Part shown: piece after piece, positions 2,824-64,000 of the stretch | Layout: the number at the start of each line of letters is the position of its first letter | Position numbering within the stretch: the stretch's first letter is position 1 | Assembly (NCBI GenBank): GCA_963575745.1 | Contig: CAUYUJ010000004.1 | Location: forward strand, 434,001 to 498,000 | Source: Prorocentrum cordatum | Lineage: Eukaryota | Direction: 5' to 3' | DNA length: 64,000 bases | Program-made: the position numbers and the translations under genes | Notes under the pieces: generated by a model | The model's input: only the letters and a program-made list of their open reading frames with translations | Databases searched by the model: none | What the model was told of the DNA's origin: nothing

Positions 2824-3117
2824 TATCAAGCTCCGCGGGCCACCCCTCCGGTCGGCCGGCCCTCCGCGCGGCCAGCGCCGCGCGTGCCCGCGCCTCCGCA
2901 GGCAAGTGCGACTACTGCAAGTACGAGTGCGCGCTGGACTACCAGTGCGCGAGGTCCCGCGAGTACGCGGGGTACCACGACGACGGCAACCTCCAAGAGT
3001 GCGACGAGTACCGCGGGCACGCGGAGTACCACCAGCACGTCAAGGAGGTTCAGGCGATCACGCCTGATCTACGGCACTGTTTTCTACTACTTGTACTTTG
3101 TTTTTTACGGCGCCGAC

Positions 3118-40899: not shown

Positions 40900-40970
<71 letters not shown>

Positions 40971-46800: not shown

Positions 46801-49218
46801 GCCCCGCCACGGTTTTCAGCTTCAGCCGAAGCTGCGGTGGCCCCGTCGGTAGGCATGTGCTCTGCCGGCGATGCTGGTGCGGCCCCGCAGGAAGGGGTTC
46901 GTGCCGCCGACGGGGTCACCGCGGAGGGGGGTGCACGCGCCGCCCAGGCCAGCGGCTACCAAGGCGGAGCCCCCGAGGAGCCTCCTCGGCTCCAAGCTGT
47001 CGGTGGCCCTGCCATGGACCAAGAGGGCTCCGGGCAGCCCCGAGCCGGCCCCGCCGACCAAGGTGCCTCTTACCCCCAATCTGTTGGAGCCGCCCACGTC
47101 GGGCGGGTCGAACGGGGTGCTGGATGTGCTCGGCCGCCGCCGCCGGGGAGGTCTCATCCCGCGGCCGCCGCCCGCCGCTTCTGGACCGAGCGAGGTCGCG
47201 ATGGTAGGGATGCGCAGGTGCAGCGCGGCTGTTTCGGCGCCGCTGGGCCCCGTGCGTTGTTGAGCTCGCTCGTGGGGCGGTGTTGTCCGCAGCGACATCA
47301 GTTCGCACCTGTCACAAGAATTGTGGCGGCGCTCCGAGCGCGGCGGCTGGCATACTCGTCTCCACGACCGCCACTTGCTCATGGTTCTGAGCCGCGGGGA
47401 ACCTTTAGGCCCCGAGCTGACCCAGATACACCGCGAGGTGGGGCTTCCCTCCCTCGAGCTCCCCATCGCACCGCGCTGGGTCAGTGAGCTGTCGGAGGCG
47501 CTGCGTTTCCGTTTGGCCTACAAGTGGGAATTCCGCACGCCCCGCCACATCAATATCCTGGAGACCACCGTGTTCAAGAGTCTGTGCAAGTACTGTTGCA
47601 TCCGCAACCCTGACTCACGGATCCCTGTTCTCTTGGATTCCCAAGTGGCACTAGGCGCGGCCGCCCGCGGTCGGAGCAGCAGCCCTGGCCTTTCGCACGT
47701 GTTGAGCACCTGCTTGCCCTACATTTTGGGGGGCGGGCTCTGCGTGGGCGGGCTCTACGTCCCGACCGACGTCCACCGAGCGGACGACCCCACGCGCAAT
47801 CGCCCTGTTCGCCCCCCCTCGCGTGTCGAGCCTGCTTGGTTGCTTGACATAGACGAGGGTCGCTTTGAGCGATTCGACATGATAGCGGCCGCCGACGCCG
47901 CCTCCGCGTGCCCGACTTGTCTGTGGGGCCGGTTCGTGCTGCAAGTTCTGGCTCGCAGCCCCGCCGCGGGCGCAGGCCCGCTCGGGCACCCCGAGGATCG
48001 CCACGTGGGAGCGCCAGCCCGGGTCGACAGGGGCGACGCGACGGCCTCCGCCGAGGCCCGCGACGCATATGAAAGCGCCGCGCCGCGCAGGGGGGCTCCT
48101 GTCTCCGTCAAGGTGCCCTCGAGCGCGGCGGCGGTGAGCTTCTCCGCGTCGCGCTGCACTCGCGCCCGTGACAGCCTGCCGGCCGCCCCTCGGGTACCAA
48201 GCCCTTCGCCGTCCCCGCCGGTAGGCATGCGCCCTTCCAGCGATGCTGTTGCGGCCCCGCAGGGAGGGGTTCGCGCCGCCGGTGGAGGGCCAGGAGAGGG
48301 CGCGCCCGAGCGGAGGTCACGCGCCAAGAGCGACGCAATCGCCGCTGCTCGACCTGGTACGCCCAAGGGGGACGCTCACCCCGTCTCGCTTCTGTCGGAG
48401 GCGAACGGCTCGGCTCCAGCTTCGTTGGGGGGTCTTCTGGGTCGTCCGTCCGTCACGACTCAGACTCGCCACCGCCAAGATCGCGCCGCCACACTTGTTG
48501 CCGCGCTCGATTTGCTCCACCTGGAGCGCGGTGCGACCACTGATCGCGTGAACGCTCAGTTTCGACGGATGGGTTGGGCCTGCCATCCCGACCGCGATAG
48601 TCGATCGAGGCCAGCAGGAAATGGCGTGCTCTCTGTGACGCCAAAGCCTTCCTCCTCGGGCCTGGGCGCGATGTTACCGGCCCCGATGCCCCGGCCTCTG
48701 GCGGCGCTACTCGCCGTGCTTTGGGCAGTGGGCTCTTGGCGGCGGGAAGGCGTGACGACGCGAACCGCTCGCGCGGGGTCGCCACTCGGGATTCGGCTCT
48801 CGACGCCTCCCTCGGTGCTCGCCTCCGCGGCATGCCGGGGGAGCGTCGGGGCGCCCCTGGCGCGTCTCCAGACGCAGAGCCGAGCGCGGTCGCTAGCTGC
48901 AGCGACCCAGGGTCGCGGGCTGCGCCACGTTGTACGGTGCAGACCCCCGCGATGCCTACTGCCGCCATGCGACGCACGCAAGCTCGCCCGGAGGCCGACC
49001 TGGGGGCCGCCCGTACCGCGGCCGCGGTGCTCCCGTTCGAGCCAGCACCCTGCCCCCCCTGCCAGGGTGCCGCGCCGACGCCCATAGCGTCGCGCCGCGC
49101 GCCAGCTCTGCACCTGCCCTGCTGGCCGGGCGCTCGCTGGGCGCAGCGGCTATGCTGCGTGCTACCCGCGAGCGGGCTGCCAGTGCGGCCACCGCCGGGG
49201 CGGCACAACACAGGGCCG
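43830..49218 (+). pseudogene. DIRS-like retroelement polyprotein, copy 1, RT deleted
   Basis: Same sequence as copy 2 but lacking 1839 bp and 224 bp at ~47255-47275. It retains the RNase H C-terminal part and a frameshifted J-domain. Confidence 0.85.
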
Positions 49219-49318
49219 NNNNNNNNNNNNNNNNNNNNNNNNNNNNNNNNNNNNNNNNNNNNNNNNNNNNNNNNNNNNNNNNNNNNNNNNNNNNNNNNNN
49301 NNNNNNNNNNNNNNNNNN
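49219..49318. other. Assembly gap (100 N)
   Basis: Run of N. Confidence 1.
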
Positions 49319-50658
49319 CGCCTCAGCCCAAGACGGCCGCTCGACGCGGCGGCCCTGCAGGGCCGCCGCGTCGAGCGGCAGCCTGGCGCGGCTGAGCGCG
49401 GCGCAGGCAAAGTTCGCCTGCGCCGCGCTCTGCGCCGCCATCTCCAGCGGCATTGCCGCTGGCGCGGGCGGCGGGGGGGGGCCCGCGCGCCGCTCGGCAG
49501 CCAGAGCGGCCCACCGCACGTAGCCGTCGTCCACAACCCAGAGGGTTGGGGGACGACGACGTGCGACGGGCCGATGGCTGCCGAGCCCGTCCCACCCCTC
49601 GGGGATGTCGAGGAGGATCCCCGACATCCCCGAGGGGTCCTCCGAGAGGAGACTGCCCCATGGCTCGGGGTCGCCATCGAAACACATGTCTCGATATGTT
49701 TTTTTCGATGGCGATCCCGAGCCGCGAAGCAAAGGGAAAAGGGAGGGCGCGCTCCCCGCGCGGCCTGTAAGCCGCACGCGCGCGGGCGGCGTCTCCTCCT
49801 CCCCCCTCCTTCTATCCTCCTCCTCCTCCTCCTCCTCCTCCTCCTCCTCCTCCTCCTCCTCCTCCTCCTCCTCTCCGCCTCCTCGCTCTCGCTCTCCTCC
49901 TCTCGTATCATCATATCTCCTCCCTCGTCCTCCTCCTCCTCTCCTCCTCCTCGTCCTCCTAGCCGCCCCGCTCCTCCGATCGTCCTCCTCCTCGCCCCCT
50001 TCCCCGCCCATCTCATCCTCCTCGCTCCTCCTCCTCCTCTCCTAAGCTTCTCTCCCCTCTCCTCTCCTCCTCCTCCTCCTCCTCACTCCTCCTCCTCGCC
50101 CTCCTCCTCCTCCTCCCCCCCCCCCCCCCCTCCTCCCCCCCCTCCTCTCGCTCTGAGCTATCTCGTCGTTTTCCTCCTCCTCATGCTCCTCCTCCTCCTC
50201 CTCCCCCTCCTCCTCCTCCTCCTCCTCCTCCTCCTCCTCCTCCCCCTCCCCCTCCTCCACCCTCCCCCCCTCGTCAGAGGAGGGGGGGGGAGAGGAGAAG
50301 GGGGAGGGGGAGCAAGATGAGGAGGAGGAGCAGCAGTAGGAGCAGGAGGAGGAGGGGGAGAAGGGGGAGGATGCGGGGAAGGAGGAGTTTGAACGACCGC
50401 ACCACTGATCAACGACATTATCGCTGCAGCGCAAGAGGAGGAGGAGGAACGAGGCGGAGGAGAGGAATCGGCGACCATGCACTGTTCAGGTGCTGCAGCA
50501 CCGAAGTGTCAATGAAAAAGGTGCGCGATGCAGAAGGAATCCACGTTTTCAAGGCGGAGAAGAGGAGTCGTCGACCATGCAACGTTCAGGTGCTGCAGCA
50601 CCGAAGCATTTAGCAATGTAAAAAAAGTGCGCTGCAGCGCCAGTAAGGAATCCACGTT

Positions 50659-52560
50659 TTAGGCTAAAGCGCACCACCGCGGCTGCGACCATATCGGGCG
50701 CGCCGCTCGGATGCCGCCGCCCTCGCGCGGCGCCCGCGCGAGCGAGCGCGCGATGCTCGCCGTGTGCGCCCAAAAGGCGTCGGCATCGCCGCCAAGCACG
50801 TGCGCGGAGGCGCGCGGGTGCAGCTTCTCCTTGAAGAAGTAGGGCAGGACCAAGCTCAAGCCATAGTAGTGGCCGTTCTTGGTGGAGGAGAGGTGTTTCA
50901 ACACCTCGGCCGCAATGTGTTCCCCTCCTCCGTCCTCCAACAGCACGACGTCGCCGTATTTGACGTCGTGGTAGCGGCGCCGCGCTGCAGCGGACGTAAC
51001 AAAGTCCGCAGGCCCGAACTGTTGCAGCAGTTCGCGCGAGATGGCCTTGGGCGGCCTGGTGGCGTTAACCAGGCAGTTAACCTTGAAGGTGTCGCCATCC
51101 ATGAGCTGCCACAGGTGCCGCTCGGTGACGCTCTTCAGGACATTGGCGTCCCAGCCGCTGGAGGCTGCAGCCCCCACCTGAAGAGCGTTCGCAAAGCGCT
51201 TGCTGGTCTTGTGCTTGCGCTCCAAAACCCAGCACGACGGCAGCGCCACATGGCCCCAACGCCTCACGTAGTTGGCGAAGTGGTGCAGGTAATGGAACTT
51301 CTGCGCCATCGTTTCCTTGCCAAAGACGCTGCTGCATGACAACAAAAACATGTTAACCGCAGCCTGCAGCTTATCCGCGTCTGCCTGACGCCTGGATACT
51401 CGTAGGATTTCTTCCACAACGATCGTGTGCGCCTTGAACACTGCGCAAGCAGATCGGACTGCAGGCGCTGCAGCGTCGCTAGCCACCTCCCTGAAGAAAC
51501 ACGTCAATCCGCCCGCGCGAACGCATGTCCGAACAAGAGGGGTGCAGTACATATCCTACAGAAATTCACGTGCGCTGCAGCGCATGTATTATTGGTATGG
51601 CGGGGGCGCGAAGCATGCAATGATACTTGCATGGTTGTGAGCCCCTCGCTGGCGGTACACTTGAAATGCTTGCTGTAAACGTGGGACCTCACGCGCTTCT
51701 CGCCGAAGATCGCGCGCGTGTCGGGGGAGATGGAGTGGCACCCTGGAAACGACCAGTCCTGGAAATATGCGTCTGCGCGCGCCCAGTAACCCTTCAACCT
51801 TCGAAACATTTGGAACGCCAGAATGTTATATGTACCGTTGACGAAAATACAATGCATCCAATCAAACATGACTGTCTCGAGCGGCTTGAGTTCCCGAACC
51901 CGCTCAGGCAAATGGGGGTCCCAGTTCCAGCCAAGTCGGCGCTCCAACTCCTGGAACTCGCCCTTGTTCATGATGTTGACCCCTTCGATCAATATGTTGC
52001 AGATGGCATCGAGCAACGGCGCCGTCATCGGCTGCAGCCGCGACGCATCTGGTTCCGAGTGGTGAACAGCGACACCCGTCGCATCAGAAGCAACTATATC
52101 CCGAACTTCGCCCTTCAAGAACACGTTGCGGCACATAAATGGTTTGATTCCTGACGAACCTTTCATTCCGATCAAGCGGTGCATTGCATCCTCGTCCGCG
52201 ATCCGACAGAGCCGCTGCAGCGACGCAAGAAGGCGTAATGGATATATACATGTGCACATGTATGCTAACTAATCTTGGGTGCTATGCGGCGACCGCTGCA
52301 GCGGCTGAATGTGAATTCCGAGGTCCATCTGGATGAGCTCCGTCGCGCCGTCGGGGCGCAGCCGCAAGCTGATGCCTGCGCTGAAGTTGTGCCCCTGATC
52401 AGGCCAGAACTGCGCGAGGATTGCGTCCAGTAGCATCGTCAGTCCGCGCGGCTGGATGTCGTTCGCGGTCTTGGCCCGCATCGTCGTGAGCTGGAACCAC
52501 GCATCCTGCGAACAAGTCGCAGCACAACTGGCGCTGCAGCGCCTCTCTCTCTCTGCTCCT

Positions 52561-52629
<69 letters not shown>

Positions 52630-52807
52630 CTCCCCTCTATCGGTCTATCTCTCTCTCTCTGCCCCCCCCCCCCCCCCCACCCCCCCCCCCCCCCCCCTCC
52701 CCCCCCCCCCCCCCCCCCCCCACCCCCCCCCCCCCCCCCCCCCCACCCACCCCCACCCCCCCCCCCACACCCCCACCCCCACCCCCCCCCCCCCCCCCCC
52801 CCCCCAC

Positions 52808-52852
<45 letters not shown>

Positions 52853-52875
52853 ACCCCCCCCCCCCCCCCCCCCAC

Positions 52876-52952
<77 letters not shown>

Positions 52953-53445
52953 CATATATCGTCGCAGCAGCAGCGCTATCGCGAAAGTCCTCCGACGAAA
53001 GCGCCTGCGGGCCGAATTCCGCGATCGCCCAGTAGATGCCCCAGGACTTGCGGTTCTGCACGTGCGCCAGCGCGTTGCCAGCGCCTATTTCATCGCCGTA
53101 AATGATGATGTGCCACGGGCGTGGCAGCCCCAGCGCCCGCTGCCACAGAGGCTGCATCGCGGGGAGGGCGCTGCAATACCACAGCATTGCTGCTGGACTG
53201 CAGATCTCCACCGTGTGCTGCCCGACTACCATGTTCTGGTGGAGCTTGCCGCACGGCGTGTTCTCACCGACCATGAGCTCCCGAGCGTATCTGATATCCT
53301 GGCGTCGGGATCCCAATTCGGGGGTTCCGTCTCGCTTAACGGACGCCAGGAATTGCGCCATCGCATTACAATGCATGAGTGGCAGTTCCGCGCGAAGGCG
53401 GGACAGCCGCCGCAGCTTCGCTGGGCGGTCGTCCTCTGCCGCCAT
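50659..53445 (-). CDS. CMC-like transposase with introns, copy 2
   Basis: Starts MAAEDDRPAKLRRLSRLRAELP; same motifs as copy 1; GA-AG intron 52506-52989 joins ALSSE|DAWFQL. Confidence 0.75.
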
Positions 53446-55533
53446 CGCGCGCGTTCCCGAGGCAAGCTTGCCTCCGTCGCTGCGCGCGCGCGGAGGGGCC
53501 CCTCCGCTAGGGGCCACGGCGACCACGGATGGAAATGAGGCTGCACCGCGTGGAGAGCAACCAAATGCGCGCTGCAGCGCTAACTGCCAAGCAACAGTCT
53601 GGGAGCACATGGCGCTACAGCGCCGCTAACGTTCAATGATGACAATCTGACGCGCTGCAGCGCGAACGTCCTCCTCCTCCTCCATCCTGCTCGCCATCCC
53701 CCTCGTCATCCTCCTCTTCCTCCCCCTCCTATACCTCCTCCTCCTCCTCTTCCTCCTCCTCCTCCTCCCCCTCCTCCTCCTCCGCCTCATGCGCCCCCTC
53801 ATCCTCCCCATCCTCCTCCTCAACCTACCCATCCTCCGTTCATCCGTCTCCCGTCCCTTCATCCTCCCCGTCACCATCGCCTTCATCGTCAACAGCATCA
53901 ATATCATCATCCGCCACGTCACCATCCAACGAGAAACTGCAAGCGAAACTGCGCTGCAGCGCAACACATTAACACATCATGATCCGCGCGCAAACTTTCA
54001 ACCGTGGTCCACGGAGAAGCGCTGCAGCGCAACTCAAACAACACGCTCAACCCCGTTCCCTCCAGCCTTTACCAATCAATCGAACCAGCATGCTTCAGCA
54101 GGCGGTCGCCGAGGCCGACCTCACTCAGGTCACCTTCATCTTCTTGGCGTTCCGCAGCGAGGTCAACGCCTCGTTGAGTTTCTGGTTGGCCACGTCCGAA
54201 GCGGCGATGTCCATCTGACCCCGACCCTGCTACTCATACTCCTCATCCTCCCACATCATCGCCTTCCACCTCCTCCTGATCATCCCCCCTGTCGTCCTTC
54301 TCCCCCGCTGCAGCGGGGGAGTAGCCTGCCACACTCATGAATCCCACCGTCCTCCTTCTCATCCGCCTCCTCATCCACCTGCAGCTCCGCGGTGCGGATC
54401 TGCACCTGCTTCTCCGCTTTCCTGGCGTTCTTCCGCGCCTCCTTCACCTCTGCTGTAGCAGTCGCCGTCGCTCTCGCGCGGGCCTCGCGCAACTCGTCGC
54501 GACGGTCGGCGCGCTTGCGCTTCGAACGGCTTGTCGCAGCGGCGCGCCGCCATTGCGAGCCCAGTGAGGAGGCGGAGGAGGTCCGTTGCCAGCACCCGCT
54601 GCAGCGAACGATGGCGACTGCGACGCGCGAGCCAAGTGAGGAGGAGGAGGAGGAAGGGGGAGGAGGGCATGCCATCGGCAACGCGCAACATGAGCGAATC
54701 ACAGCGCTGCAGCGCGTGACTTGGCAACAACCATGCGGGAGACAAAACTCGACATCGCGAATGATGGCGCTGCAGCGCGTATCGACGAGAAACGACTGGC
54801 ACTCAAGACGAGCACGTCACGCAATGCATGGACACCGCGGCTGCAACTGCACACTCACAAACGCGCCAACGCTACAACGGCACCACAAGTCTGACAGGCG
54901 CTGCAGCGCTGCATCGGAACACAACAGCGCGCAATATCTACGCCACCATCCAGGAAAGCGAGCGCTGCAGCGCTGCATCGTGATCATGATGGCGATGCAA
55001 ACGTTGACCACAAAGGCGCCAGCGCTGCAGCGCCCGCATCCAAGAGAACCCGTCAACATATTTGACTTTCATCCTCCTCGTCGTCCGTGCGAGCCGCGCG
55101 ACCGCCAGGCAAGACCATCGCCACTACCGTTCATATCATCGGCCAGCGTTCCATCCAACCTCGCACTAATCCTCACCATCCTCCTCATTCCTTCTCCTCC
55201 ACATGCTCCTTCTTATCCCCATCGCGCCCGCTGATTGCAGTCGTCTGCAGCTTCTCGGCCCGATAGCTGCCCCGCTCGCCCCCCACTCCCCTCCCCGCGC
55301 GCGCGCGGCCGGGGCGCCAGGGGCCCGCGGGGCCATCGCCGTTCAGGTTTCCTCGACACCTACGCGGCGATCGTCGGCTCCGGGTTCGCCACCCCGCGCT
55401 GGCCCAAGTCGGTCGGGCCGGCGCCTGTGGCCCGTACGACGAGAGCGAGCGTCGGGGCCGACCGTCCGTTCTGAGCGGTGGTCGGTCGGGCAGGCGCGCC
55501 TTTCGGCACCCTGCCTGCCGTGGCCACTGGGCC

Positions 55534-58500
55534 TTGCTAGCACCGTCGCTGCTCGCTCTTCGGCGGGCGGTGCGGACAGGGCCCATGCCACGTCCTGCCG
55601 TTGGCAGGTCTCTCCAGCCTGCACCAGTCTGGTGGTCTTCGGCGCTCTCCACGCCGACTTCGGCGCAAAACTCCTCTCCCTCCTCCTTCGCCTTCTCCCC
55701 CTTGGCCTTTGGGGCGGCGGAGCAGGAGGCCCATCTGAGGAGAGGAGTAGGAGGGGGGCCTCACACGCCGCAGCGCCACGCCTTGCGCCGTGGCGCAGCG
55801 CCAGCCCTCGTCTCGGGCGTTCAAAGTGCCGCCGCGCCTGGGGTCTCAGCCGCCGCTTCTACGCAAGACTTTCAGCCGCCGCGACAGAGACGCCCGACGG
55901 AGGGCACAGTGGCCAAAGGCGCTCCGACGCGCCGCCCAAGGGCTTCAGCCGCCGCGCAAGCCATGCCCGCCATTCCTGCTGCCAGCGAACCCAATGCCAG
56001 CGTGTTCAACGCCGAAGCACCAGAGGGGTGCCCTGCGAAGATAACTGCGCTCTTGGGAAGGGAAGTGGTGGACGAGGATCTCTCTTACCTCCCCCCCACT
56101 CCTTCTCCTTGCCTCTACTTCGCCACCTGGCTCACCTGTGCCGCTAAGCATGGCGACCACTTTGTGGGCCCCGCCTGCTCCACCGTGGGCGGGGGAGCGT
56201 CACTCGCGGGGCACACGGGCTCTGCCGCCGCCTCGGTTTCCTGGCCTTCGGCTGGAGGCATCGCCGCGGCCACTTCTGCCGACGATGCTGCTCGGACCGC
56301 CGGGGGCGGATGCATTCGCGCACCTCCAGGCTTGGACCCGCTGCCTCCTGGGCCTCCGGTCAGGCAGATTGGGCCGCCTCCGGGCCTTGACGTCTTGGAG
56401 GTTGGTTCCCAGAGGCTCAGTGCGGCATGCCCGCGCCGTGGCGCTGCTGCGGCTTGGAGCCCCACGGTCGTCTATCAGGTCCGACCTGGGGCCACGGCGT
56501 CAGAGGCCGCGCTTCCTCTACTGAGGACGCCGCCTCCGCCGCCACAGGGTCGCCCCTGGAGCGGTGCGTTGGCCCTGGTGGAGGCGGGGTGCTCCGTCGT
56601 CCCTCCTCGGGGTTCTTCGGCGGCCATGTCCGACTGCGGCCTTGACGGGGGTAGTCCCTCCTTTTCGAGGGCGGCGCCGCGGTGTGGCTCGAAAGGGGTT
56701 GGTATGCGCCCTGCCAGCGATGCTGATACGGCCCCGCAGGGAGGGGCTCGTACCGCCCCCCCAGCCGCCACCGCAGTCCACCAGCCTGGCACCCCGCCGC
56801 GGAGCGGCCCCAGGGCCACCTCGGCCTTACGCGCCGACCTCCACTTGTGGGACCTGCACACGGGCTCCGACACTCAGGGTGTGGATCCGCCGCCAGGCCT
56901 CTCCGGCTCCGAAGCAGGCTCACGGGTGCCGCCTTTGGTCGACCTCCGCGCGGCCCTTGCCTCGGATGGGGTGCAGCTGTTTAGCAGCGGGAGTATGCCG
57001 TGCACTGCGGCGTCGCCACTTCTGTCCGAGCGCTTCACGGTCGCCGACGGTGACCGCGCGGCCAGCGGAACACCCCTGAGCGCGGACTGGCATCGTGTCT
57101 CCGGGGATTCGCCCTCCCAGGCCAGGCATCTGAGGCCACCGTCCGGAGTTGCCGTCCCAGAAGCGGATGTTCATGCGCCGCCGCCGCTCCACCGTAGCGC
57201 GGTTGGTCCCGCCTCACTTCGGGCGGGCGCTGCCCGTGGGCGCATGTGGTATGGTGAGCGCGCAGGGCTCCTGCCTTTCACTAACCTCGAGGGCGGTGTC
57301 GGCGCGCCAGCTGCCGGAGGGCCACCTCCCCAGTCAAGCGCCCGGGGCGCTTGCACTTGTAACGCAGCGGGCACTCAAGCAGCGGAGTCAACTCCAGGCC
57401 TCGTCGGCTCCGCCGCGGGCTCCTCGGGTGAAGGCGTCGCCGCAGCCGCAGCCATTCCAGCGCGGCCCCGACGCCTCTCGTGCGATCGGATCCAGGGCCT
57501 CGCCGCGTCGATCCCTGCTCGCGCTCGCGAGCGCCTGCTGGCCGACCCTCGTGGTCTGAGCTACTCTCCGTCACCACTGGTAGGCATGCGCCCTTCCAGC
57601 GATGCTGTTACGGCCCCGCAGGGAGGGGTTCGTGCCGCCGGTGGGAAGTCAGGAGCGGGCTCGTCCACGGCGGTCTGCTCTGTCCGAGGGGCCGCTTTCG
57701 CCACGGGCTCCTCGGGCGAATGCGCCGCCGCAGCCGTTGCCACTCCAGCGCGGCCCCGACGCCTCTCGTGCGATCGGATCCAGGGCCTCGCCGCGTCGAT
57801 CCCTGCTCGCGCTCGCGAGCGCCTGCGGGCCGACCCTCGTGGTCTGAGCCCTTCTCCGTCCCCACTGGTCGGCATGCGCCCCTCCAGCGATGCTGTTACG
57901 GCCCCGCAGGGAGGGGTTCGTGCCGCCGGTGGGACGTCAGGAGCGGGCTCGTCCGCGGCGGCCGCGACTCCCCGGGATGCGGTCCCTGCGTTCCGCTCTG
58001 TCCGAGGGGCCGCTTTCGCCGCGGGCTCCTCGGATGAAGGCGTCGCCGCAGTCACTGCCACTCCAGCGCGGCCCCGACGCCGCTCGGCCTCCACCAACAG
58101 CGCTGCCGCACTCCCCGCCTTCAGGCTCCGACGAGTTCGTCGGGTCCGCACTCGGCGTGGAGGACGGCGGGGTCGTCGGGCCGTCGATGGTAGCTGCCGT
58201 GCCGCTCACGCTCCAGCCCATGCTGGTGCAGCTGCCTCGTCTTCGGACGCCCTTTCTGGTGCTTCAGAGGCCGCTTCTGGGGCCCCTGTCCAAGGGAGCC
58301 GCCGCTCGCGCTTCAATCGGAGCGCGCGCGAGGATGCGGCAGCAATGTTGCGCTTCGGAAGTGCACCGCCCGTTGTCGTGCCTCCTGCGGCTGGAGCCCC
58401 GCCACGGTTTTCAGCTTCAGCCGAAGCTGCGGGGGCCCCGTCGGTAGGCATGTGCTCTGCCGGCGATGCTGGTGCGGCCCCGCAGGAAGGGGCTCGTGCC

Positions 58501-61500
58501 GCCGACGGGGTCACCGCGGAGGGGGGTGCACGCGCCGCCCAGGCCAGCGGCTACCAAGGCGGAGCCCCCGACGAGCCTCCTCGGCTCCAAGCTGTCGGTG
58601 GCCCTGCCCTGGACCAAGAGGGCTCCGGGCAGCCCCGAGCCGGCCCCGCCGACCAAGGTGCCTCTTACCCCCAATCTGTTGGAGCCGCCCACGTCGGGCG
58701 GGTCGAACGGGGTGCTGGATGTGCTCGGCCGCCGCCGCCGGGGAGGTCTCATCCCGCGGCCGCCGCCCGCCGCTTCTGGACCGAGCGAGGTCGCGATGGT
58801 AGGGATGCGCAGGTGCAGCGCGGCTGTTTCGGCGCCGCTGGGCCCCGTGCGTGCCGCCATGGTGATTCTCGCTCGCTCCCAGGCGCTTCCCCCGCTCCTC
58901 CTGGCCATCCTGGTCCCAGCGTGGGCGTCGGGGCGCGCCCTGCGCCCTTCGCGCCTTGCCCTTTTCCCAGCACATCCCGTACCAGCACTGGCACTGGCAG
59001 GTCTGCGCCTTTCGTGGCCGATCTGTCCGCCTTGCTGCGCCTGTTTCCAGGCGCCAGCATCGACGTCACCCACTGGGCCGCTGCTCTTGCCCAGGTCGGG
59101 ATGGGGACTCGATGCTCCCTTGCCGCTTTTACCCGCACATCTTTCTGCGCGCTGGAATGGGACGACTCGTACTTGTCGGGGTCGGCTCCCCGCGATCCTT
59201 GGCCGTGCCCTCCCTCGCCGCCTCTTCCGCCGCCACCTGGTCACCTTACGGGTCGCGCGCGGGAGCGCTGGCGTGTGAGGCGCGCCGCCCGCACGTTGTC
59301 GCAGCATGCTGTCGTTGCGCTCAACTGGCTCACCTTGGGTCATCCCAGCTTCGCTCCCGCCGAAGCTCGGGTGCGGGAAACGGTCACACCCTGCCAGGAG
59401 GGAGTTCGCAGTCGCCTCGAGCGTCTGTGTCGGATCGCAGTTCGCCTTGCCCGTGGTGGCAAGAGCGACCTTGGTCGGGCTTTCGCCAAGTTCGACTCCA
59501 CCGAAGTCTCGCTCCATGGCCTGGCTACCCATGTTGCAGCTCTTGAGGCTTCGTTCACCTCTTCCTCACAAGTGCCCGCCCCCATGCGGCAACTCCCCGT
59601 CAGCGCGACGCCCCTGGCAAGCTCGTTGGCGGTCGCGGCAGGCTGGGACTCCACCCAGGCTGAGCCTTTCGACCTTCGGGCCCAGGCGTCCCGCATCAAG
59701 TGGGATTACTCTCCTACGTTTGATCCCACTCCGTACTTGTCCGACGATCTGGTACGTTCCGCCTTTCATGACCCCGACGTCATGCGGCTACCAGAGGACG
59801 AGTGGCCTTCGGGCTTTTCGGGTGCTCGTGTGCACATGGACCGCGAGCAGCTGTGGGAGCTCCTGCGCAAGTGGGACTCTTGTGGCGCCCTGTATCTGAC
59901 TCCCTCCGACAACCTCGCCTGGGACGAGGCTTGTGGAGCGTTCAGGGTCCCGAAGGACGAGGCTCATGACCGTCTCATCCTGAATCCGACGGTAGTAAAC
60001 AGTCGTTGCAGCAGCGTGTCCTCCAGCACTCAGCGCCTCGGCCAGGGTTTCCTCCTGTGCCGCCTGGGGCTCGCGCCCGGGGAATGGCTGGTGGTTTCGT
60101 GTGACGACCTGCGCGAGTTCTACTACACGTTCAAGGTCCCGCCCGCTCGTGCACGCCGCAACGCCCTCCGCGTCAAGCTGCCCAGCTCGCGGTTCAGAGG
60201 CTTCAACGCGTGGCGGGCAGACCTTGAGGGGTTGGACGTTTCTCCCTGCCTTAATGCGCTGGCCATGGGTGACAACATGGCAGTGGAGATCGCCAACTCC
60301 GCACACGAGGGCGTGCTGCGCAGCTTCGGCGCGCTCCGGCCTTCCGAGCAGGCTGTGCATCGCCTGCCGTTCCCTCGGGGGCCGTACGTCGAGATGTTAA
60401 ACATCGACGACCACACGGGCTTTCAGAAGCTCTCGTGGCGCGGGAGCGCCCCGCGCCCCGACGACCCGACACGCCGCGACAGGGAGGTCTTTGCTGCGTG
60501 CGATCGCGGCTACCCCCAGGTGGGTCTCATTCAGCACCCCGGGAAGAGAGCCAGGGGCGAGACCCACAAAGTCGTTGTCGGCGCCGAGGTGGAGGGCAGG
60601 ATCGGCATCGTGTGTGCTCCCCTGGTTCGCACTGTGGCCCTTTGCCGCTTGACTCTGATTCAGGTGTTCCTCGGTCGCTCGACCCGGGCGTTGTTGAGCT
60701 CGCTCGTGGGTTGTTGGGTGCAGGTGTTTTTGTATCGTCGTCCCATCCTGTCGATATTCACTCACATCTACACCTTCATCACGACACTTCCCGACGACGG
60801 GCTTGAGTATGAGCTCCCGTCTTCGGTTCGCGACGAATTGCAAGCCTGCACCTACCTTGCCTTCGTTGCGATGACCGACCTTCGGGCGACGCCTTGCCCT
60901 GAAGTGTTCGGCACGGATGCCTCCCTCGGCTGGGGCGGTGTTGTCCGCAGCGACATCAGTTCGCACCTGTCACAAGAATTGTGGCGGCGCTCCGAGCACG
61001 GCGGCTGGCATACTCGTCTCCACGACCGCCACTTGCTCATGGTTCTGAGCCGCGGGGAACCTTTAGGCCCCGAGCTGACCCAGATACACCGCGAGGTGGG
61101 GCTTCCCTCCCTCGAGCTCCCCATCGCACCGCGCTGGGTCAGTGAGCTGTCGGAGGCGCTGCGTTTCCGTTTGGCCTACAAGTGGGAATTCCGCACGCCC
61201 CGCCACATCAATATCCTGGAGACCACCGTGTTCAAGAGTCTGTGCAAGTACTGTTGCATCCGCAACCCTGACTCACGGATCCCTGTTCTCTTGGATTCCC
61301 AAGTGGCACTAGGCGCGGCCGCCCACGGTCGGAGCAGCAGCCCTGGCCTTTCGCACGTGTTGAGCACCTGCTTGCCCTACATTTTGGGGGGCGGGCTCTA
61401 CATGGGCGGGCTCTACGTCCCGACCGACGTCCACCGAGCGGACGACCCCACGCGCAATCGCCCTGTTCGCCCCCCCTCGCGTGTCGAGCCTGCTTGGTTG

Positions 61501-64000
61501 CTTGACATAGACGAGGGTCGCTTTGAGCGATTCGACATGATAGCGGCCGCCGACGCCGCCTCCGCGTACCCGACTTGTCTGTGGGGCCGGTTCGTGCTGC
61601 AAGTTCTGGCTCGCAGCCCCGCCGCGGGCGCAGGCCCGCTCGGGCACCCCGAGGATCGCCACGTGGGAGCGCCAGCCCGGGTCGACAGGGGCGACGCGAC
61701 GGCCTCCGCCGAGGCCCGCGACGCATATGAAAGCGCCGCGCCGCGCAGGGGGGCTCCTGTCTCCGTCAAGGTGCCCTCGAGCGCGGCGGCGGTGAGCTTC
61801 TCCGCGTCGCGCTGCACTCGCGCCCGTGACAGCCTGCCGGCCGCCCCTCGGGTACCAAGCCCTTCGCCGTCCCCGCCGGTAGGCATGCGCCCTTCCAGCG
61901 ATGCTGTTGCGGCCCCGCAGGGAGGGGTTCGCGCCGCCGGTGGAGGGCCAGGAGAGGGCGCGCCCGAGCGGAGGTCACGCGCCAAGAGCGACGCAATCGC
62001 CGCTGCTCGACCTGGTACGCCCAAGGGGGACGCTCACCCCGTCTCGCTTCTGTCGGAGGCGAACGGCTCGGCTCCAGCTTCGTTGGGGGGTCTTCTGGGT
62101 CGTCCGTCCGTCACGACTCAGACTCGCCACCGCCAAGATCGTGCCGCCAAACTTGTTGCCGCGCTCGATTTGCTCCACCTGGAGCGCGGTGCGACCACTG
62201 ATCGCGTGAACGCTCAGTTTCGACGGATGGGTTGGGCCTGCCATCCCGACCGCGATAAGTCGATCGAGGCCAGCAGGAAATGGCGTGCTCTCTGTGACGC
62301 CAAAGCCTTCCTCCTCGGGCCTGGGCGCGATGTTACCGGCCCCGATGCCCCGGCCTCTGGCGGCGCTACTCGCCGTGCTTTGGGCAGAGGGCTCTTGGCG
62401 GCGGGAAGGCGTGACGACGCGAACCGCTCGCGCGGGGTCGCCACTCGGGATTCGGCTCTCGACGCCTCCCTCGGTGCTCGCCTCCGCGGCATGCCGGGGG
62501 AGCGTCGGAGCGCCCCTGGCGCGTCTCCAGACGCAGAGCCGAGCGCGGTCGCTAGCTGCAGCGACCCAGGGTCGCGGGCTGCGCCACGTTGTACGGTGCA
62601 GACCCCCGCGATGCCTACTGCCGCCATGCGACGCACGCAAGCTCGCCCGGAGGCCGACCTGGGGGCCGCCCGTACCGCGGCCGCGGTGCTCCCGCCCTTT
62701 CGAGCCAGCACCCTGCCCCCCCTGCCAGGGTGCCGCGCCGACGCCCATAGCGTCGCGCCGCGCGCCAGCTCTGCACCTGCCCTGCTGGCCGGGCGCTCGC
62801 TGGGCGCAGCGGCTATGCTGCGTGCTACCCGCGAGCGGACTGCCAGTGCGGCCACCGCCGGGGCGGCACATCACAGGGCCGTGCTTCCGTGGGGCCACAG
62901 CGCAGAGCGCAGCGAGGTGTCGCCGGCTCCCAGCTTTGCCGACTCCTGCTGCGCCGGCCAGCGTGCCGACTCTTGCGCCGCCCAGCTCACCGCGTCCCGC
63001 GGCGACCAGCTCACTGACTTGCAGCCCTCCCAGCTCACCGACTCCCGCACCGACCAGCTCGCCGACTCCCGCGCCGACCAGATCGCCGACTCGCGTGCCG
63101 AGGGGCTCGCCGACGCCCGCACCGACCAGCTCGCTGACGCCTTCACCCGTTCCGACTCCCGTGCCGATCCTCTCACCGGATTAGCATTGCGCACCAGCCG
63201 GGTCGTTGGCCCGACGGCCACGGTTGCGAGGCGCGTGCGTGACGAACGGCGCGCTCTGGCGCGGTTCCGTGCCTCGGTCGATGTTCTCGACGCCGCTCTT
63301 ACCGAAGTTGAATTCGGTCGAGGCGCGGAGGCTTGGGGTCCAAGTGCAGGAGAGCTGGCTGAGCTTTTGCAGACGACACTGGCCGAGCTCGAGCGCCAGA
63401 AGGCTGCGTTGCGCATCGCCCGCTCTCGCACTGCCGAGTGCGTCAGAGGGTCCGCTTCCGCCTCGGGCTTTTCGGGTGGAGGCGCCGCCGCAGCCGCTGC
63501 CGGCGCACCCCCGAGAGCTCCCGCCACGGCTGGTAGCGCTACTTTTGCAGCTCAAGCGAAGGAGCGTGCGGATAAGCACACGGCTAGCTATCGCGACGTG
63601 GTCGAGGCTAGGGCTCATTCGGGCGCCCAGGCGTCGCATCCGCGCAAGCGCCGTGGCGTCGGGCGCCCGTGCTCTGCGGCGCCCGTCACGCCACGGACCG
63701 CCATTAGTTGCGATGAGCGCTCCCGCTCCGCAGCACCTGCCGCCACCCGCTCGGCCGCGTTTTCCGAGACGCTGTGCGCTGTTGACCGCAGGCGGCGCGA
63801 GCACTCCCCAGGACTCAGGCCTCTGATCCTGGACGGCACGGACCGCCAGCCGGAAGCCGCGCCGAGCACCGGCGAGGTCGTCGAGGCCCCCCGCGCCGAG
63901 CAACGCGGCCGCACCTCGCGTCGCAAGCGCAGGCGTGTTCGGGCTTCCGCCGGAGCGGCAGCTACCACTCCTGCCAATCCCTCTGGTCAAGAGCCGCCCG
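55534..64000 (+). CDS. DIRS-like retrotransposon polyprotein (>2,600 aa, 3' incomplete): RT, RNase H, J-domain
   Basis: Positions 1 mod 3. I found no stop after TAG 55264 in the segments translated, and the frame's absence from the ORF track fits an ORF running off the end. Candidate ATGs at 55585 and 55963. RT: GAFRVPKD..DRLILNP (59941), DDLREFYY, LAMGDNMAVE, NIDDH (60400). RNase H: TDAS (60913), HINILE, LLDSQVALGA..GRSSS, RADDPTR (61441). No tyrosine recombinase seen inside the window. Confidence 0.88.
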   Translation, partial: MLAPSLLALRRAVRTGPMPRPAVGRSLQPAPVWWSSALSTPTSAQNSSPSSFAFSPLAFGAAEQEAHLRRGVGGGPHTPQRHALRRGAAPALVSGVQSAAAPGVSAAASTQDFQPPRQRRPTEGTVAKGAPTRRPRASAAAQAMPAIPAASEPNASVFNAEAPEGCPAKITALLGREVVDEDLSYLPPTPSPCLYFATWLTCAAKHGDHFVGPACSTVGGGASLAGHTGSAAASVSWPSAGGIAAATSADDAARTAGGGCIRAPPGLDPLPPGPPVRQIGPPPGLDVLEVGSQRLSAACPRRGAAAAWSPTVVYQVRPGATASEAALPLLRTPPPPPQGRPWSGALALVEAGCSVVPPRGSSAAMSDCGLDGGSPSFSRAAPRCGSKGVGMRPASDADTAPQGGARTAPPAATAVHQPGTPPRSGPRATSALRADLHLWDLHTGSDTQGVDPPPGLSGSEAGSRVPPLVDLRAALASDGVQLFSSGSMPCTAASPLLSERFTVADGDRAASGTPLSADWHRVSGDSPSQARHLRPPSGVAVPEADVHAPPPLHRSAVGPASLRAGAARGRMWYGERAGLLPFTNLEGGVGAPAAGGPPPQSSARGACTCNAAGTQAAESTPGLVGSAAGSSGEGVAAAAAIPARPRRLSCDRIQGLAASIPARARERLLADPRGLSYSPSPLVGMRPSSDAVTAPQGGVRAAGGKSGAGSSTAVCSVRGAAFATGSSGECAAAAVATPARPRRLSCDRIQGLAASIPARARERLRADPRGLSPSPSPLVGMRPSSDAVTAPQGGVRAAGGTSGAGSSAAAATPRDAVPAFRSVRGAAFAAGSSDEGVAAVTATPARPRRRSASTNSAAALPAFRLRRVRRVRTRRGGRRGRRAVDGSCRAAHAPAHAGAAASSSDALSGASEAASGAPVQGSRRSRFNRSAREDAAAMLRFGSAPPVVVPPAAGAPPRFSASAEAAGAPSVGMCSAGDAGAAPQEGARAADGVTAEGGARAAQASGYQGGAPDEPPRLQAVGGPALDQEGSGQPRAGPADQGASYPQSVGAAHVGRVERGAGCARPPPPGRSHPAAAARRFWTERGRDGRDAQVQRGCFGAAGPRACRHGDSRSLPGASPAPPGHPGPSVGVGARPAPFAPCPFPSTSRTSTGTGRSAPFVADLSALLRLFPGASIDVTHWAAALAQVGMGTRCSLAAFTRTSFCALEWDDSYLSGSAPRDPWPCPPSPPLPPPPGHLTGRARERWRVRRAARTLSQHAVVALNWLTLGHPSFAPAEARVRETVTPCQEGVRSRLERLCRIAVRLARGGKSDLGRAFAKFDSTEVSLHGLATHVAALEASFTSSSQVPAPMRQLPVSATPLASSLAVAAGWDSTQAEPFDLRAQASRIKWDYSPTFDPTPYLSDDLVRSAFHDPDVMRLPEDEWPSGFSGARVHMDREQLWELLRKWDSCGALYLTPSDNLAWDEACGAFRVPKDEAHDRLILNPTVVNSRCSSVSSSTQRLGQGFLLCRLGLAPGEWLVVSCDDLREFYYTFKVPPARARRNALRVKLPSSRFRGFNAWRADLEGLDVSPCLNALAMGDNMAVEIANSAHEGVLRSFGALRPSEQAVHRLPFPRGPYVEMLNIDDHTGFQKLSWRGSAPRPDDPTRRDREVFAACDRGYPQVGLIQHPGKRARGETHKVVVGAEVEGRIGIVCAPLVRTVALCRLTLIQVFLGRSTRALLSSLVGCWVQVFLYRRPILSIFTHIYTFITTLPDDGLEYELPSSVRDELQACTYLAFVAMTDLRATPCPEVFGTDASLGWGGVVRSDISSHLSQELWRRSEHGGWHTRLHDRHLLMVLSRGEPLGPELTQIHREVGLPSLELPIAPRWVSELSEALRFRLAYKWEFRTPRHINILETTVFKSLCKYCCIRNPDSRIPVLLDSQVALGAAAHGRSSSPGLSHVLSTCLPYILGGGLYMGGLYVPTDVHRADDPTRNRPVRPPSRVEPAWLLDIDEGRFERFDMIAAADAASAYPTCLWGRFVLQVLARSPAAGAGPLGHPEDRHVGAPARVDRGDATASAEARDAYESAAPRRGAPVSVKVPSSAAAVSFSASRCTRARDSLPAAPRVPSPSPSPPVGMRPSSDAVAAPQGGVRAAGGGPGEGAPERRSRAKSDAIAAARPGTPKGDAHPVSLLSEANGSAPASLGGLLGRPSVTTQTRHRQDRAAKLVAALDLLHLERGATTDRVNAQFRRMGWACHPDRDKSIEASRKWRALCDAKAFLLGPGRDVTGPDAPASGGATRRALGRGLLAAGRRDDANRSRGVATRDSALDASLGARLRGMPGERRSAPGASPDAEPSAVASCSDPGSRAAPRCTVQTPAMPTAAMRRTQARPEADLGAARTAAAVLPPFRASTLPPLPGCRADAHSVAPRASSAPALLAGRSLGAAAMLRATRERTASAATAGAAHHRAVLPWGHSAERSEVSPAPSFADSCCAGQRADSCAAQLTASRGDQLTDLQPSQLTDSRTDQLADSRADQIADSRAEGLADARTDQLADAFTRSDSRADPLTGLALRTSRVVGPTATVARRVRDERRALARFRASVDVLDAALTEVEFGRGAEAWGPSAGELAELLQTTLAELERQKAALRIARSRTAECVRGSASASGFSGGGAAAAAAGAPPRAPATAGSATFAAQAKERADKHTASYRDVVEARAHSGAQASHPRKRRGVGRPCSAAPVTPRTAISCDERSRSAAPAATRSAAFSETLCAVDRRRREHSPGLRPLILDGTDRQPEAAPSTGEVVEAPRAEQRGRTSRRKRRRVRASAGAAATTPANPSGQEPP
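62149..62313 (+). other. DnaJ/J-domain within the retroelement polyprotein
   Basis: KLVAALDLLHLERGATTDRVNAQFRRMGWACHPDRDKSIEASRKWRALCDAKAFLL; HPD motif with typical helix II/III spacing. Confidence 0.85.
62941..63175 (+). repeat. 24-bp coding tandem repeat (DSRxDQLA)n
   Basis: gactcccgcrccgaccagctcgcc units, in frame. Confidence 0.8.

What the first reader, a model, noticed from the sequence alone, without database searches (positions are those of the whole stretch)
62149..62313. J-domain (Hsp70 co-chaperone) fused downstream of RT-RNase H
Seen: an intact HPD-containing J-domain in frame with RT; copy 1 (~48490-48660) has a 1-nt deletion just after HPD. Established: polyomavirus T antigens use J-domains to recruit Hsp70, and hepadnaviral RT needs Hsp40/Hsp70 for activation. 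I know of no described DIRS element with its own J-domain. Inference: cis-recruitment of Hsp70 for RT folding or particle assembly, possibly tying mobilisation to heat stress.
Basis: partly seen in the sequence, partly recalled or inferred. Interest (0 to 1): 0.75.

Follow-up and report, generated by a model that had tools for sequence, protein, structure and literature searches.

The report
J-domain beside truncated DIRS-type polymerase
A real but divergent J-domain (Hsp70 co-chaperone module) sits in the same long reading frame as a dinoflagellate DIRS-type reverse transcriptase, but it most likely belongs to a neighbouring repeat or gene family, not to the retroelement.

Summary
Window 62149-62313 encodes a J-domain-like segment with an intact HPD (62242-62250). 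It lies in one 2822-codon ORF (55534-63999, 3' open) downstream of a domain that folds as retroviral-type RT plus RNase H. Copy 1 carries the 1-nt deletion just after HPDRD.

The interpretation, a DIRS element with its own J-domain, is not supported.
- The polymerase belongs to the Pfam-invisible "SymbioDIRS" kind. Here it is 3'-truncated: homology to relatives ends at about 61722, at a decayed 2A-like site and the first residues of the recombinase. No tyrosine recombinase is found anywhere in the window.
- A high-copy repeat (61710-61972) separates it from the J segment.
- None of 37 related polymerase proteins has a J-like match.
- None of the 17 J relatives found among 1.84 billion proteins carries an RT.
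- The nearest true homologue is a Prorocentrum cordatum protein with the same J-like plus coiled-coil module twice in tandem, without RT, and with HPD broken to HRPD.
- The two window copies flank a 100-N assembly gap.

Most likely this is a locus-specific in-frame juxtaposition. Interest is modest.

The parts
55534..63999 (+). Single stop-free frame of 2822 codons, open at the window's 3' end. It contains every part listed below on copy 2.
   Evidence: Stops in the other five frames: 11-17 over 55534-58969, but only 1-20 over 62314-63999, where two frames have just 1-2.
55534..58969 (+). Low-complexity Ala/Gly/Pro/Arg-rich N-terminal part with repeated units. These are a 288-bp tandem at 57411-57961 and R-motif copies at 56681, 57563, 57851 and 58427. 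No known domain.
   Evidence: Pfam finds nothing. There is no codon periodicity: GC1/2/3 are 0.75/0.72/0.68. The frame has 0 stops, against 11-17 in the other frames.
59293..61722 (+). DIRS-type Pol. It has an N-terminal conserved region, an RT (about 59683-60999) and an RNase H (about 61123-61557). It is intact, with no stop or frameshift, but lacks the DNMT and the tyrosine recombinase.
   Evidence: 28-45% identity to 19 proteins, including Symbiodinium records. tblastn limits are. The fold matches retroviral RT-RH. Codon periodicity is GC2 0.48 and GC3 0.77 over 59734-61533.
61582..61656 (+). Position equivalent to the relatives' 2A-like ...LLLLAGDIE(R/Q)NPGP motif. Here it has decayed to ...QVLARSPAAGAGP. 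Recognisable homology ends about 25 residues further on.
   Evidence: Alignment with P0002, P0003, P0004, P0006 and P0047. NPGP is present in 26 of 37 relatives and absent from the window ORF.
61710..61972 (.). Repeat unit U, 66% like the 263-nt units at 57411 and 57699. It contains the R motif (61862-61958), whose roughly 60-bp core (61878-61937) is very high-copy in public read sets. This is the junction between the Pol part and the J part.
   Evidence: Contig depth over 61800-61999 is 730/161/1178/198 in X1-X4, against 40-80 in the flanks, with loose ends at 61877/61878 and 61937/61938.
62149..62313 (+). J-domain-like segment, helices I-III, with HPD at 62242-62250. No recognisable helix IV.
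62951..63132 (+). Tandem repeat with a 24-nt period, 7.6 copies. It encodes (D/T)SR(A/T)DQL(A/T)-type octapeptides.
63307..63447 (+). Coiled-coil-like motif ...AGELAELLQTTLAELERQKAALRIARSRTAECVR. It is shared and colinear with both units of the Prorocentrum cordatum protein P0023.
   Evidence: 66% identity over 41-47 residues, E 3e-11 and 2e-10. tblastn places it at 63367-63447.
47265..49218 (+). Copy 1 of the RNase H, U repeat and J region, 99% identical to 60921-62881. The J remnant is at about 48482-48660, with a 1-nt deletion after HPDRD that puts helix III out of frame. Copy 1 also lacks the equivalent of 58853-60920 (the RT).
   Evidence: The copy-1 N-terminal J fragment scores 18.4 bits for Pfam DnaJ.
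49219..49318 (.). Assembly gap of 100 N between copy 1 and copy 2.

Best explanation
The J-domain is real but is not a component of the DIRS-type retroelement.

The locus is a chimeric reading frame. An intact RT-RNase H of the dinoflagellate 'SymbioDIRS' kind has lost its 2A-like site, its tyrosine recombinase and whatever lay 3' of them. At a short high-copy repeat (61710-61972) it abuts a separate module made of a divergent type-III-like J-domain plus a coiled-coil motif.

That J plus coiled-coil module is a small GC-rich (probably dinoflagellate) family of its own. It occurs without any RT, in two tandem units, in a Prorocentrum cordatum protein.

Shown:
- domain identities;
- the point where Pol homology ends;
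- absence of J in Pol relatives;
- absence of RT in J relatives.

Inferred:
- that the join arose by truncation or recombination at the repeat;
- that the frame stays open downstream largely because stop codons are rare in this roughly 70% GC DNA;
- that the J segment, if translated, would act like any HPD-bearing J-domain, docking on Hsp70 and stimulating its ATPase, whether or not a polymerase is attached.
For: 1. The Pol is truncated. Similarity to the closest relatives runs up to their ...GDIE(R/Q)NPGP motif, which here has decayed to ...RSPAAGAGP. It fades within about 25 residues of the recombinase start, at about 61722. No recombinase was found in any of the six frames of the 64 kb, using an HMM built from 23 relatives at E<=1 and tblastn.

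2. The gap between the end of homology and the J segment is filled by a repeat unit that also occurs upstream in the same ORF. Its core has about 10-15 times the contig depth of its flanks in four public runs, and contigs break there.

3. Pol relatives lack J.
- 0 of 19 have Pfam DnaJ at E<=0.01.
- 0 of 37 match a local J-family HMM; the best is E 0.096 at 4.1 bits. Seven of the 37 are 90%-cluster mates of two others, so they are not independent.
- A query of RNase H plus J plus tail returned 11 proteins, each covering only 9-20% of it.

4. J relatives lack RT.
- All 17 non-self hits among 1.84e9 representatives are 70-899 aa.
- Their only Pfam families are DnaJ, ankyrin repeats, HMG-box and RPT.

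5. P0023 (Prorocentrum cordatum, so named by the tool) has J-like plus coiled-coil twice, colinear with window ORF residues 2180-2262 and 2592-2638, and no similarity to the RT-RH part.

6. Codon periodicity is confined to the RT-RH core. The flanks are flat.

7. The downstream frame is weak evidence of coding.
- Two other frames there have only 1-2 stops in 562 codons.
- In copy 1 the frame stays open for about 163 codons after the frameshift.

8. Differences between copy 1 and copy 2 are spread evenly over codon positions: 5/7/7, 15/17/22 and 4/7/5. Non-synonymous changes outnumber synonymous ones (12:7, 36:18, 13:3). There is no sign of constraint since the duplication.
Against: - The frame is uninterrupted for 2822 codons. 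Its upstream 1145 codons have 0 stops against 11-17 in the other frames, so at least part of the long ORF is or recently was kept open.
- Both copies in the window show the same RNase H, repeat and J order (99.8% identity over 61700-62150).
- Contig depth of the J region (about 2.5-3 times single-copy) is similar to that of the RNase H 3' end in three of four runs. Some further copies may therefore keep the same arrangement. That tool warns that depth is not a copy number.
- This Pol family is known to pick up accessory domains: Dnmt3 was acquired twice (PMC5890265, passages read).
- The protein libraries under-sample transposon ORFs of this organism. The P. cordatum gene-calling pipeline removed gene models containing transposable elements from its transcript-based (training) gene set (PMC10666404, passage read).
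- Both metagenome scans found nothing. Absence of J in relatives is therefore not absence in the closest, unsampled relatives.
Confidence: 0.55

Rival explanations
1. The J-domain is a lineage-specific accessory domain of a DIRS-derived element, mobile with help in trans or domesticated. It was acquired 3' of RNase H and is translated as one polyprotein, so that Hsp70 is recruited in cis to fold or activate the polymerase.
For: - One open frame joins RT-RH and J.
- The Pol is intact, with the IDD and DAS motifs aligned to relatives and a confident fold.
- HPD and the basic helix II residues (FRRM) are kept.
- Both window copies share the arrangement.
- A variant of the J region about 94% alike and without gaps occurs in all four runs laid (table 8).
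- The family has acquired DNMT domains twice (PMC5890265).
Against: - J is absent from 37 of 37 relatives.
- Pol homology ends in a decayed 2A site and a recombinase stub before a high-copy repeat.
- There is no recombinase in the window, so this copy cannot integrate by itself.
- The J plus coiled-coil module exists without RT, and with HRPD, in P0023.
- There is no constraint signal between the copies.
- No contig bridges RNase H to J in the four runs.
Confidence: 0.2
2. The long ORF is a dinoflagellate multi-unit polyprotein gene. Different coding units, here a co-opted Pol and a J/coiled-coil protein, are separated by a recurring spacer peptide (...VGMRPSSDAVTAPQGGVRAAGG...) that is removed after translation.
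For: - The R motif occurs 5 times in the same frame, flanking different modules, including both sides of the Pol part.
- The upstream 1145 codons are stop-free against 11-17 stops in the other frames.
- P0023 shows tandem J/coiled-coil units in one gene model.
- PMC10666404 (passages read) describes P. cordatum genes with several coding units joined by spacers and translated as one protein.
Against: - The published cases concern repeats of the same unit (HSP70, RuBisCo), not mixed units.
- The R core is about 50 times single-copy depth in the read sets, which suits a dispersed repeat as well as a spacer.
- The flanks show no codon periodicity.
- P0023 contains no R-like spacer.
- No protein or RNA evidence was obtainable.
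Confidence: 0.1
3. The RNase H to J adjacency is an assembly mis-join at the high-copy R repeat. The 'two copies' would be haplotigs or duplicated assembly paths on either side of a scaffold gap.
For: - Copy 1 ends and copy 2 starts exactly at the 100-N gap.
- Short-read contigs of four runs all break at 61877-61938, and none bridges the repeat.
- Copy 1's small deletions and its 2068-bp deletion were not listed in those runs.
Against: - The same junction is present in both copies, with flanks 99-99.8% identical.
- The R core is only about 60 bp, short for a long-read mis-join.
- Contigs drop rare variants, so their silence is weak evidence (tool note).
Confidence: 0.07

Closest known systems
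SymbioDIRS and SymbioDIRS-Dnmt3 retrotransposons of Symbiodiniaceae (de Mendoza et al. 2018, PMC5890265; passages read)
   Same: The Pol is 28-45% identical to proteins that include named Symbiodinium records. The RT is invisible to Pfam, as that paper states for Symbiodinium DIRS. The RT-RNase H order and the conserved N-terminal region match.
   Different: The window copy has no tyrosine recombinase and no DNMT, and its 2A-like site has decayed. No DIRS-type terminal repeat arrangement was established. A J-domain is not reported in that paper: 'DnaJ' and 'J domain' each occur 0 times in its main text.
J-domain proteins (Pfam PF00226), J-domain-only 'type III' kind
   Same: The HPD loop lies between two antiparallel helices. 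Helix II carries FRRM and helix III EAxxKWxxLxDAxxxL. The best structural matches are DnaJ/Hsp40 J-domains.
   Different: The Pfam score is borderline (20-27.8 bits against a cut-off of 27.8). There is no helix IV, no G/F or zinc-finger region, and only 30-48% identity to any other J-domain.
Prorocentrum cordatum protein CAK0819462.1 (P0023), unnamed product
   Same: It has the same two modules in the same order: J-like with ...CDAK(S/A)(L/F)LLG, then ...LLAELER(R/Q)K(D/A)A(M/L)RIARSR...CVR. Its composition is similarly GC-rich and Ala/Arg/Pro-rich.
   Different: It has two tandem units and no RT-RH. HPD is replaced by HRPD, helix III is preceded by an 8-residue insert, and the J part is only 36% identical.
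Virus-encoded J-domains (polyomavirus T antigens) and chaperone-dependent hepadnaviral RT.
   Same: They share the concept of a replicating genetic element using the Hsp70/Hsp40 system.
   Different: There is no sequence relationship. Here the J segment lies outside the part of the ORF that is homologous to retroelements.

Membership tests
J-domain (Pfam DnaJ, PF00226) | Profile score at or above the curated gathering score (27.8 bits) | tested here: inconclusive
   27.8 bits for 62149-62313 alone, 26 bits for 62050-62400 and 20 bits for the whole ORF. Reciprocal support: 17 of 17 non-self phmmer hits carry DnaJ, and 27 of 27 PDB sequence hits are J-domains.
J-domain (Pfam DnaJ, PF00226) | His-Pro-Asp tripeptide in the loop between helices II and III | tested here: met
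   CAT CCC GAC at 62242-62250. It falls in the loop between model helices 29-43 and 51-68. It is aligned with the HPD of canonical J proteins.
J-domain (Pfam DnaJ, PF00226) | Four-helix fold with an antiparallel helix II/III hairpin | tested here: inconclusive
   Three helices are predicted with pLDDT 83-91. The region after residue 68 has pLDDT below 50, and no helix IV is seen. The top Foldseek matches are all J-domains but reach only E 7.9e-3 or weaker. The model's alignment was made of J proteins.
J-domain (Pfam DnaJ, PF00226) | Stimulates Hsp70 ATPase in an HPD-dependent way | not testable with these tools
   This needs biochemistry. No complex prediction was run.
DIRS-order (tyrosine-recombinase) retrotransposons | RT plus RNase H polymerase related to DIRS-type Pol | tested here: met
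   Homology to recombinase-bearing relatives. The fold matches retroviral RT-RH.
DIRS-order (tyrosine-recombinase) retrotransposons | Encodes a tyrosine recombinase | tested here: not met
   An HMM of the recombinase region of 23 relatives gave 0 hits at E<=1 in the six frames of the window. tblastn with five relatives hit only RT and RH at this locus. The window ends 2.3 kb after the RNase H, so a recombinase further downstream cannot be excluded.
DIRS-order (tyrosine-recombinase) retrotransposons | Terminal repeats in the DIRS arrangement (inverted, or split direct A-coding-B-A-B) | tested here: inconclusive
   Only short R/U repeats flank the Pol part (58427-58523 and 61710-61972). One contig in run X4 joins 61937 back to 58970. 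The true ends of the repeat unit are hidden by the N gap.
SymbioDIRS-Dnmt3 | Dnmt3-type cytosine methyltransferase inside Pol | tested here: not met
   The region between RT and RNase H that holds the PPC-motif domain in P0002, P0004 and P0006 is missing here. tblastn segments jump from subject residue about 745-759 to about 1076-1089.

The most novel reading that the evidence does not exclude
A Prorocentrum-type dinoflagellate carries a DIRS-derived polymerase that has swapped its recombinase for a J-domain/coiled-coil module. It is translated as one polyprotein, possibly cut at the recurring R spacer peptides. The retroelement-derived RT would then bring its own Hsp70 recruiter. This would be the first retrotransposon, or domesticated retrotransposon gene, with a built-in co-chaperone.
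Probability: 0.15. Interest if true: 0.7.

Novelty: new member of a known kind. Interest (0 to 1): 0.3.

Why it matters
If the J-domain truly belonged to the element, it would be a new class of retrotransposon accessory domain. It would also offer a direct handle on the chaperone dependence of reverse transcriptases.

The evidence points instead to an incidental in-frame neighbour. That is a useful caution: in about 70% GC dinoflagellate DNA, stop-free frames run across unrelated modules, so "in frame with RT" is weak evidence of a functional fusion.

Two by-products may be of use to specialists:
- a small divergent family of J-like plus coiled-coil proteins;
- a conserved 2A-like NPGP site in front of the recombinase of SymbioDIRS-type elements.

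Tried and rejected
- **Whole-genome search of the window's own assembly.** No genome is held, so copy numbers and J/Pol adjacency could not be counted directly.
- **Word-indexed protein search with 62080-63999.** None of the 7999 candidates scored reached E<=1e-3.
- **Two metagenome-contig scans** (J-family alignment, then the window's J segment). 40 and 594 pattern matches were found, and none was confirmed by tblastn.
- **ESM Atlas.** Only DnaJ clusters came up, at scores 0.77-0.79, below the tool's trust level.
- **PDB sequence profile of the Pol alignment.** 0 hits.
- **DinoSL relic search** (21-nt motif, recalled from memory, up to 3 mismatches). 0 matches in the window.
- **Sequencing runs.** No RNA holder was listed, so expression could not be tested. 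The only hint of RNA is an 82-aa transcriptome-derived EukProt record identical to the window from Met inside helix II onward. It could equally come from contaminating DNA or another sample. The contigs laid do not bridge the R repeat. Parts without cover, and indels or joints that were not listed, are not evidence of absence.
- **Alternative coding on other frames or the other strand across the J region.** Four ORFs of 102-307 aa have no Pfam family at E<=0.1.
- **Chance as the explanation for the J match.** Rejected.
- **Earlier notes of this scan.** Three look-ups returned nothing.
- **Literature.** Searches listed no paper describing a transposon-encoded J-domain.
  - In the review of retrotransposon accessory domains (PMC6338049), 'DnaJ', 'J-domain', 'chaperone' and 'Hsp70' each occur 0 times in the main text.
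  - They are likewise absent from bioRxiv 10.64898/2026.05.21.726589.
  - These are word searches of an open-access library, not proof that nothing is in print. Supplements were not read.
- **Complex prediction (J with an Hsp70).** Not run. A pass would rest on likeness to solved J-Hsp70 complexes and would not bear on whether the domain belongs to the element.

Full report
**What is at the coordinates**

Window 62149-62313 lies inside one stop-free frame of 2822 codons (55534-63999, +) that runs off the window's end. The local DNA is 65-71% G+C.

Pfam finds a single family in this ORF at E<=1, DnaJ (PF00226). The last equals the curated cut-off. The match covers profile positions 4-53 of 63. 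The HPD codons are at 62242-62250.

**Is the J match more than chance?**

- phmmer of 62080-62400 against 1.84 billion representative proteins returned 18 hits at E<=1e-3.
  - One is an identical 82-aa fragment.
  - All 17 others carry Pfam DnaJ at E<=1e-3. Sixteen reach the gathering score; P0028 does not, at 19.9 bits.
- Against PDB sequences, 27 of 27 hits at E<=1 are J-domain chains. The best has E 6.5e-4.
- An AlphaFold2 model (83 aa, pLDDT 79) has three helices, with HPD in the loop between the second and third. The tail after residue 68 is unstructured.
- Every listed Foldseek match in the PDB is a J-domain, for example 5nro_B at rmsd 1.0 over 52 columns. None reaches E<=1e-3; the best is 7.9e-3. 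The model's alignment was made of J proteins, so this test is partly circular.
- The alignment shows the usual helix II (FRRM...HPD) and helix III (EAxxKWxxLxDAxxxL) pattern.

I accept a divergent J-domain of helices I-III, with no recognisable helix IV.

**The RT-RNase H**

Pfam sees no RT, and a profile of the family finds nothing among PDB sequences. The region 59293-61722 is nevertheless 28-45% identical to 19 long proteins, several of them named Symbiodinium records.

Its model (pLDDT 80, pTM 0.79) matches at least 500 PDB chains at E<=1e-3. The 50 listed are all RT chains, retroviral or caulimoviral, aligned over about 630 columns that include the RNase H. The best has E 6e-12.

The relatives carry, after RNase H, a 2A-like ...GDIE(R/Q)NPGP or ...GEAxNPGP motif and then a tyrosine-recombinase-like C-terminus. 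Some have a PPC-motif methyltransferase between RT and RNase H or after it.

This matches the 'SymbioDIRS' and 'SymbioDIRS-Dnmt3' elements of de Mendoza et al. 2018. That paper also says that Symbiodinium DIRS RTs do not fit the Pfam seed (PMC5890265, passages read).

**The two copies**

Self-comparison shows 37521-49218 and 49319-62881 to be 91-99% alike. Copy 1 ends and copy 2 begins at a run of 100 N (49219-49318). The repeat's 'ends' are therefore assembly artefacts, and the two may be tandem duplicates or haplotigs.

Copy 1 lacks the equivalent of 58853-60920, which is the RT. Neither small deletion, nor the large one, was listed in contigs of four public runs. That is silence, not disproof.

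**Where the retroelement ends**

Alignment with the closest relatives runs through RNase H up to their 2A-like motif. At that position the window reads ...GRFVLQVLARSPAAGAGP instead of ...GRWxRLLLLLAGDIE(R/Q)NPGP. About 25 faintly similar residues of the recombinase start follow, and then similarity stops at about 61722.

NPGP is present in 26 of 37 relatives and nowhere in the window ORF. Seven of those 37 are 90%-cluster mates of two others.

An HMM of the recombinase part of 23 relatives finds nothing at E<=1 in any frame of the 64 kb. tblastn agrees.

The Pol part is thus intact in itself but 3'-truncated, and it cannot integrate on its own.

**The junction**

From 61710 to 61972 lies a unit 66% like two 263-nt units at 57411 and 57699. 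It contains a motif, R, present five times in the ORF and always in the same frame as ...VGMRPSSDAVTAPQGGVRAAGG....

In contigs of four public runs, the 200-base bin holding the R core has depths of 730/161/1178/198, against about 40-80 on either side. Contigs end at 61877/61878 and 61937/61938, and none bridges RNase H to J.

Other contigs match only from 58976 onward, and one joins 61937 back to 58970. Other copies of the Pol part therefore sit in other contexts.

Depth of the J region is about 2.5-3 times that of the apparently single-copy ends of the stretch. It is similar to the RNase H 3' end and lower than the RT core. The tool warns that such depths are not copy numbers.

A variant of 62171-62647 about 94% alike and without gaps is present in all four runs (table 8).

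**Does the J-domain travel with this Pol family?**

- 0 of 19 relatives have Pfam DnaJ at E<=0.01.
- 0 of 37 match an HMM of the window's own J family. The best is E 0.096 at 4.1 bits.
- A search with RNase H plus J plus tail found 11 proteins, each covering 9-20% of the query.
- None of the 17 J relatives has an RT.

The two true relatives of the J segment share its signature W..(L/F)CDAK(S/A)(L/F)LL.

- P0028 is a 198-aa metagenome fragment that keeps HPD.
- P0023 is an 899-aa Prorocentrum cordatum product, so named.
  - It holds two tandem units. Each has a J-like segment reading HRPD instead of HPD, then a motif ...LLAELERRKDAMRIARSRLADCVR.
  - These are colinear with window ORF residues 2180-2262 and 2592-2638 (36% and 66% identity).
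  - It has no similarity to the RT-RH part.

The J plus coiled-coil module is thus a unit of its own.

**Is the long frame meaningful?**

- Codon periodicity (GC2 0.48, GC3 0.77) is seen only in 59734-61533. The J segment alone has GC2 0.49, but it is short. The flanks are flat.
- Upstream of Pol the frame has 0 stops in 1145 codons, against 11-17 in the other five frames. That part is or was kept open.
- Downstream of J it has 0 stops in 562 codons, but two other frames there have only 1 and 2.
- In copy 1 the frame stays open for about 163 codons after the frameshift. Openness downstream therefore says little.
- Differences between the copies are even over codon positions and mostly non-synonymous.

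**Best reading**

The most likely picture (confidence about 0.55) is a truncated SymbioDIRS-type Pol joined at a dispersed repeat to a J/coiled-coil module of a separate small family, with the frame open across the join.

If translated, the J segment should behave as an HPD-bearing J-domain towards Hsp70. That is inference from the family, not tested here.

**Rivals**

- A lineage-specific accessory domain, or a domesticated Pol-J fusion (about 0.2).
- A multi-unit polyprotein with R as the spacer peptide (about 0.1). This is prompted by the description of P. cordatum genes with several coding units joined by spacers (PMC10666404, passages read).
- An assembly mis-join at R (about 0.07).

**Organism**

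The organism is probably a GC-rich dinoflagellate of the Prorocentrum kind. This is inferred from P0023, from the Symbiodinium Pol relatives, and from the 59.7% genome G+C given in PMC10666404. It is an inference only.

**Literature**

Word searches listed no paper describing a transposon-encoded J-domain. The terms are absent from the main text of a review of retrotransposon accessory domains (PMC6338049), of PMC5890265, and of bioRxiv 10.64898/2026.05.21.726589. Supplements were not read.

They were not checked.

**Verdict**

Interest is 0.3.

Noticed in passing
Relatives P0002-P0010, P0012, P0016-P0020, P0040-P0047, P0050, P0051, P0053. The window equivalent is 61582-61656.: A 2A-like motif...LLLLAGDIE(R/Q)NPGP or ...R(I/V)GEAxNPGP, sits directly before the tyrosine-recombinase part in 26 of 37 SymbioDIRS-type proteins. 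This suggests StopGo separation of Pol and recombinase. A paper on 2A peptides mentions dinoflagellates among the carriers of class B peptides but does not mention recombinases (PMC12338488, passages read). No paper listed links 2A-like sequences to DIRS.
   Followed up: partly
window 61862-61958, also 56681, 57563, 57851 and 58427: The R motif core reads GGTAGGCATGCGCCC...GCGGCCCCGCAGGG. It has GT...AG ends 42 nt apart (a multiple of three), and its depth in public contigs is about 50 times single-copy. Spacer peptide, dispersed repeat or tiny intron-like element: not resolved.
   Followed up: partly
window 59400-59599: A second depth spike lies inside the Pol N-terminal region: 795/147/1157/108 in runs X1-X4, with loose ends at 59413 and 59426. 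This short stretch is far more repeated than the rest of the Pol part. Unexplained.
   Followed up: no
window 2884-11672 (+): A run of five long ORFs (335-1002 aa) looks like another large mobile element. There is a weak Pfam integrase core match (rve, 21.6 bits, below the cut-off) at the end of 4422-7430. The methyltransferase part of P0009 gives a tblastn hit at 6240-6635 (E 1e-6).
   Followed up: no
window 49219-49318: A gap of 100 N lies exactly between two stretches of about 12-13 kb that are 91-99% alike (37521-49218 and 49319-62881). This may be a haplotig or collapsed-repeat scaffolding artefact.
   Followed up: partly
P0021 / P0039 (82 aa), equivalent to window 62227-62472: A transcriptome-derived EukProt record labelled as a Pyramimonas strain is 100% identical to the window from the Met inside helix II of the J segment onward. 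It is either a hint of transcription or cross-sample contamination. It starts in mid-domain, which does not fit a long Pol-J transcript, but this is weak.
   Followed up: no
window 62951-63132: A 24-nt tandem repeat (7.6 copies) encodes (D/T)SR(A/T)DQL(A/T)-type octapeptides between the J segment and the coiled-coil motif. Contigs of several runs show length variants there, as joints going back 43-63 bases.
   Followed up: no
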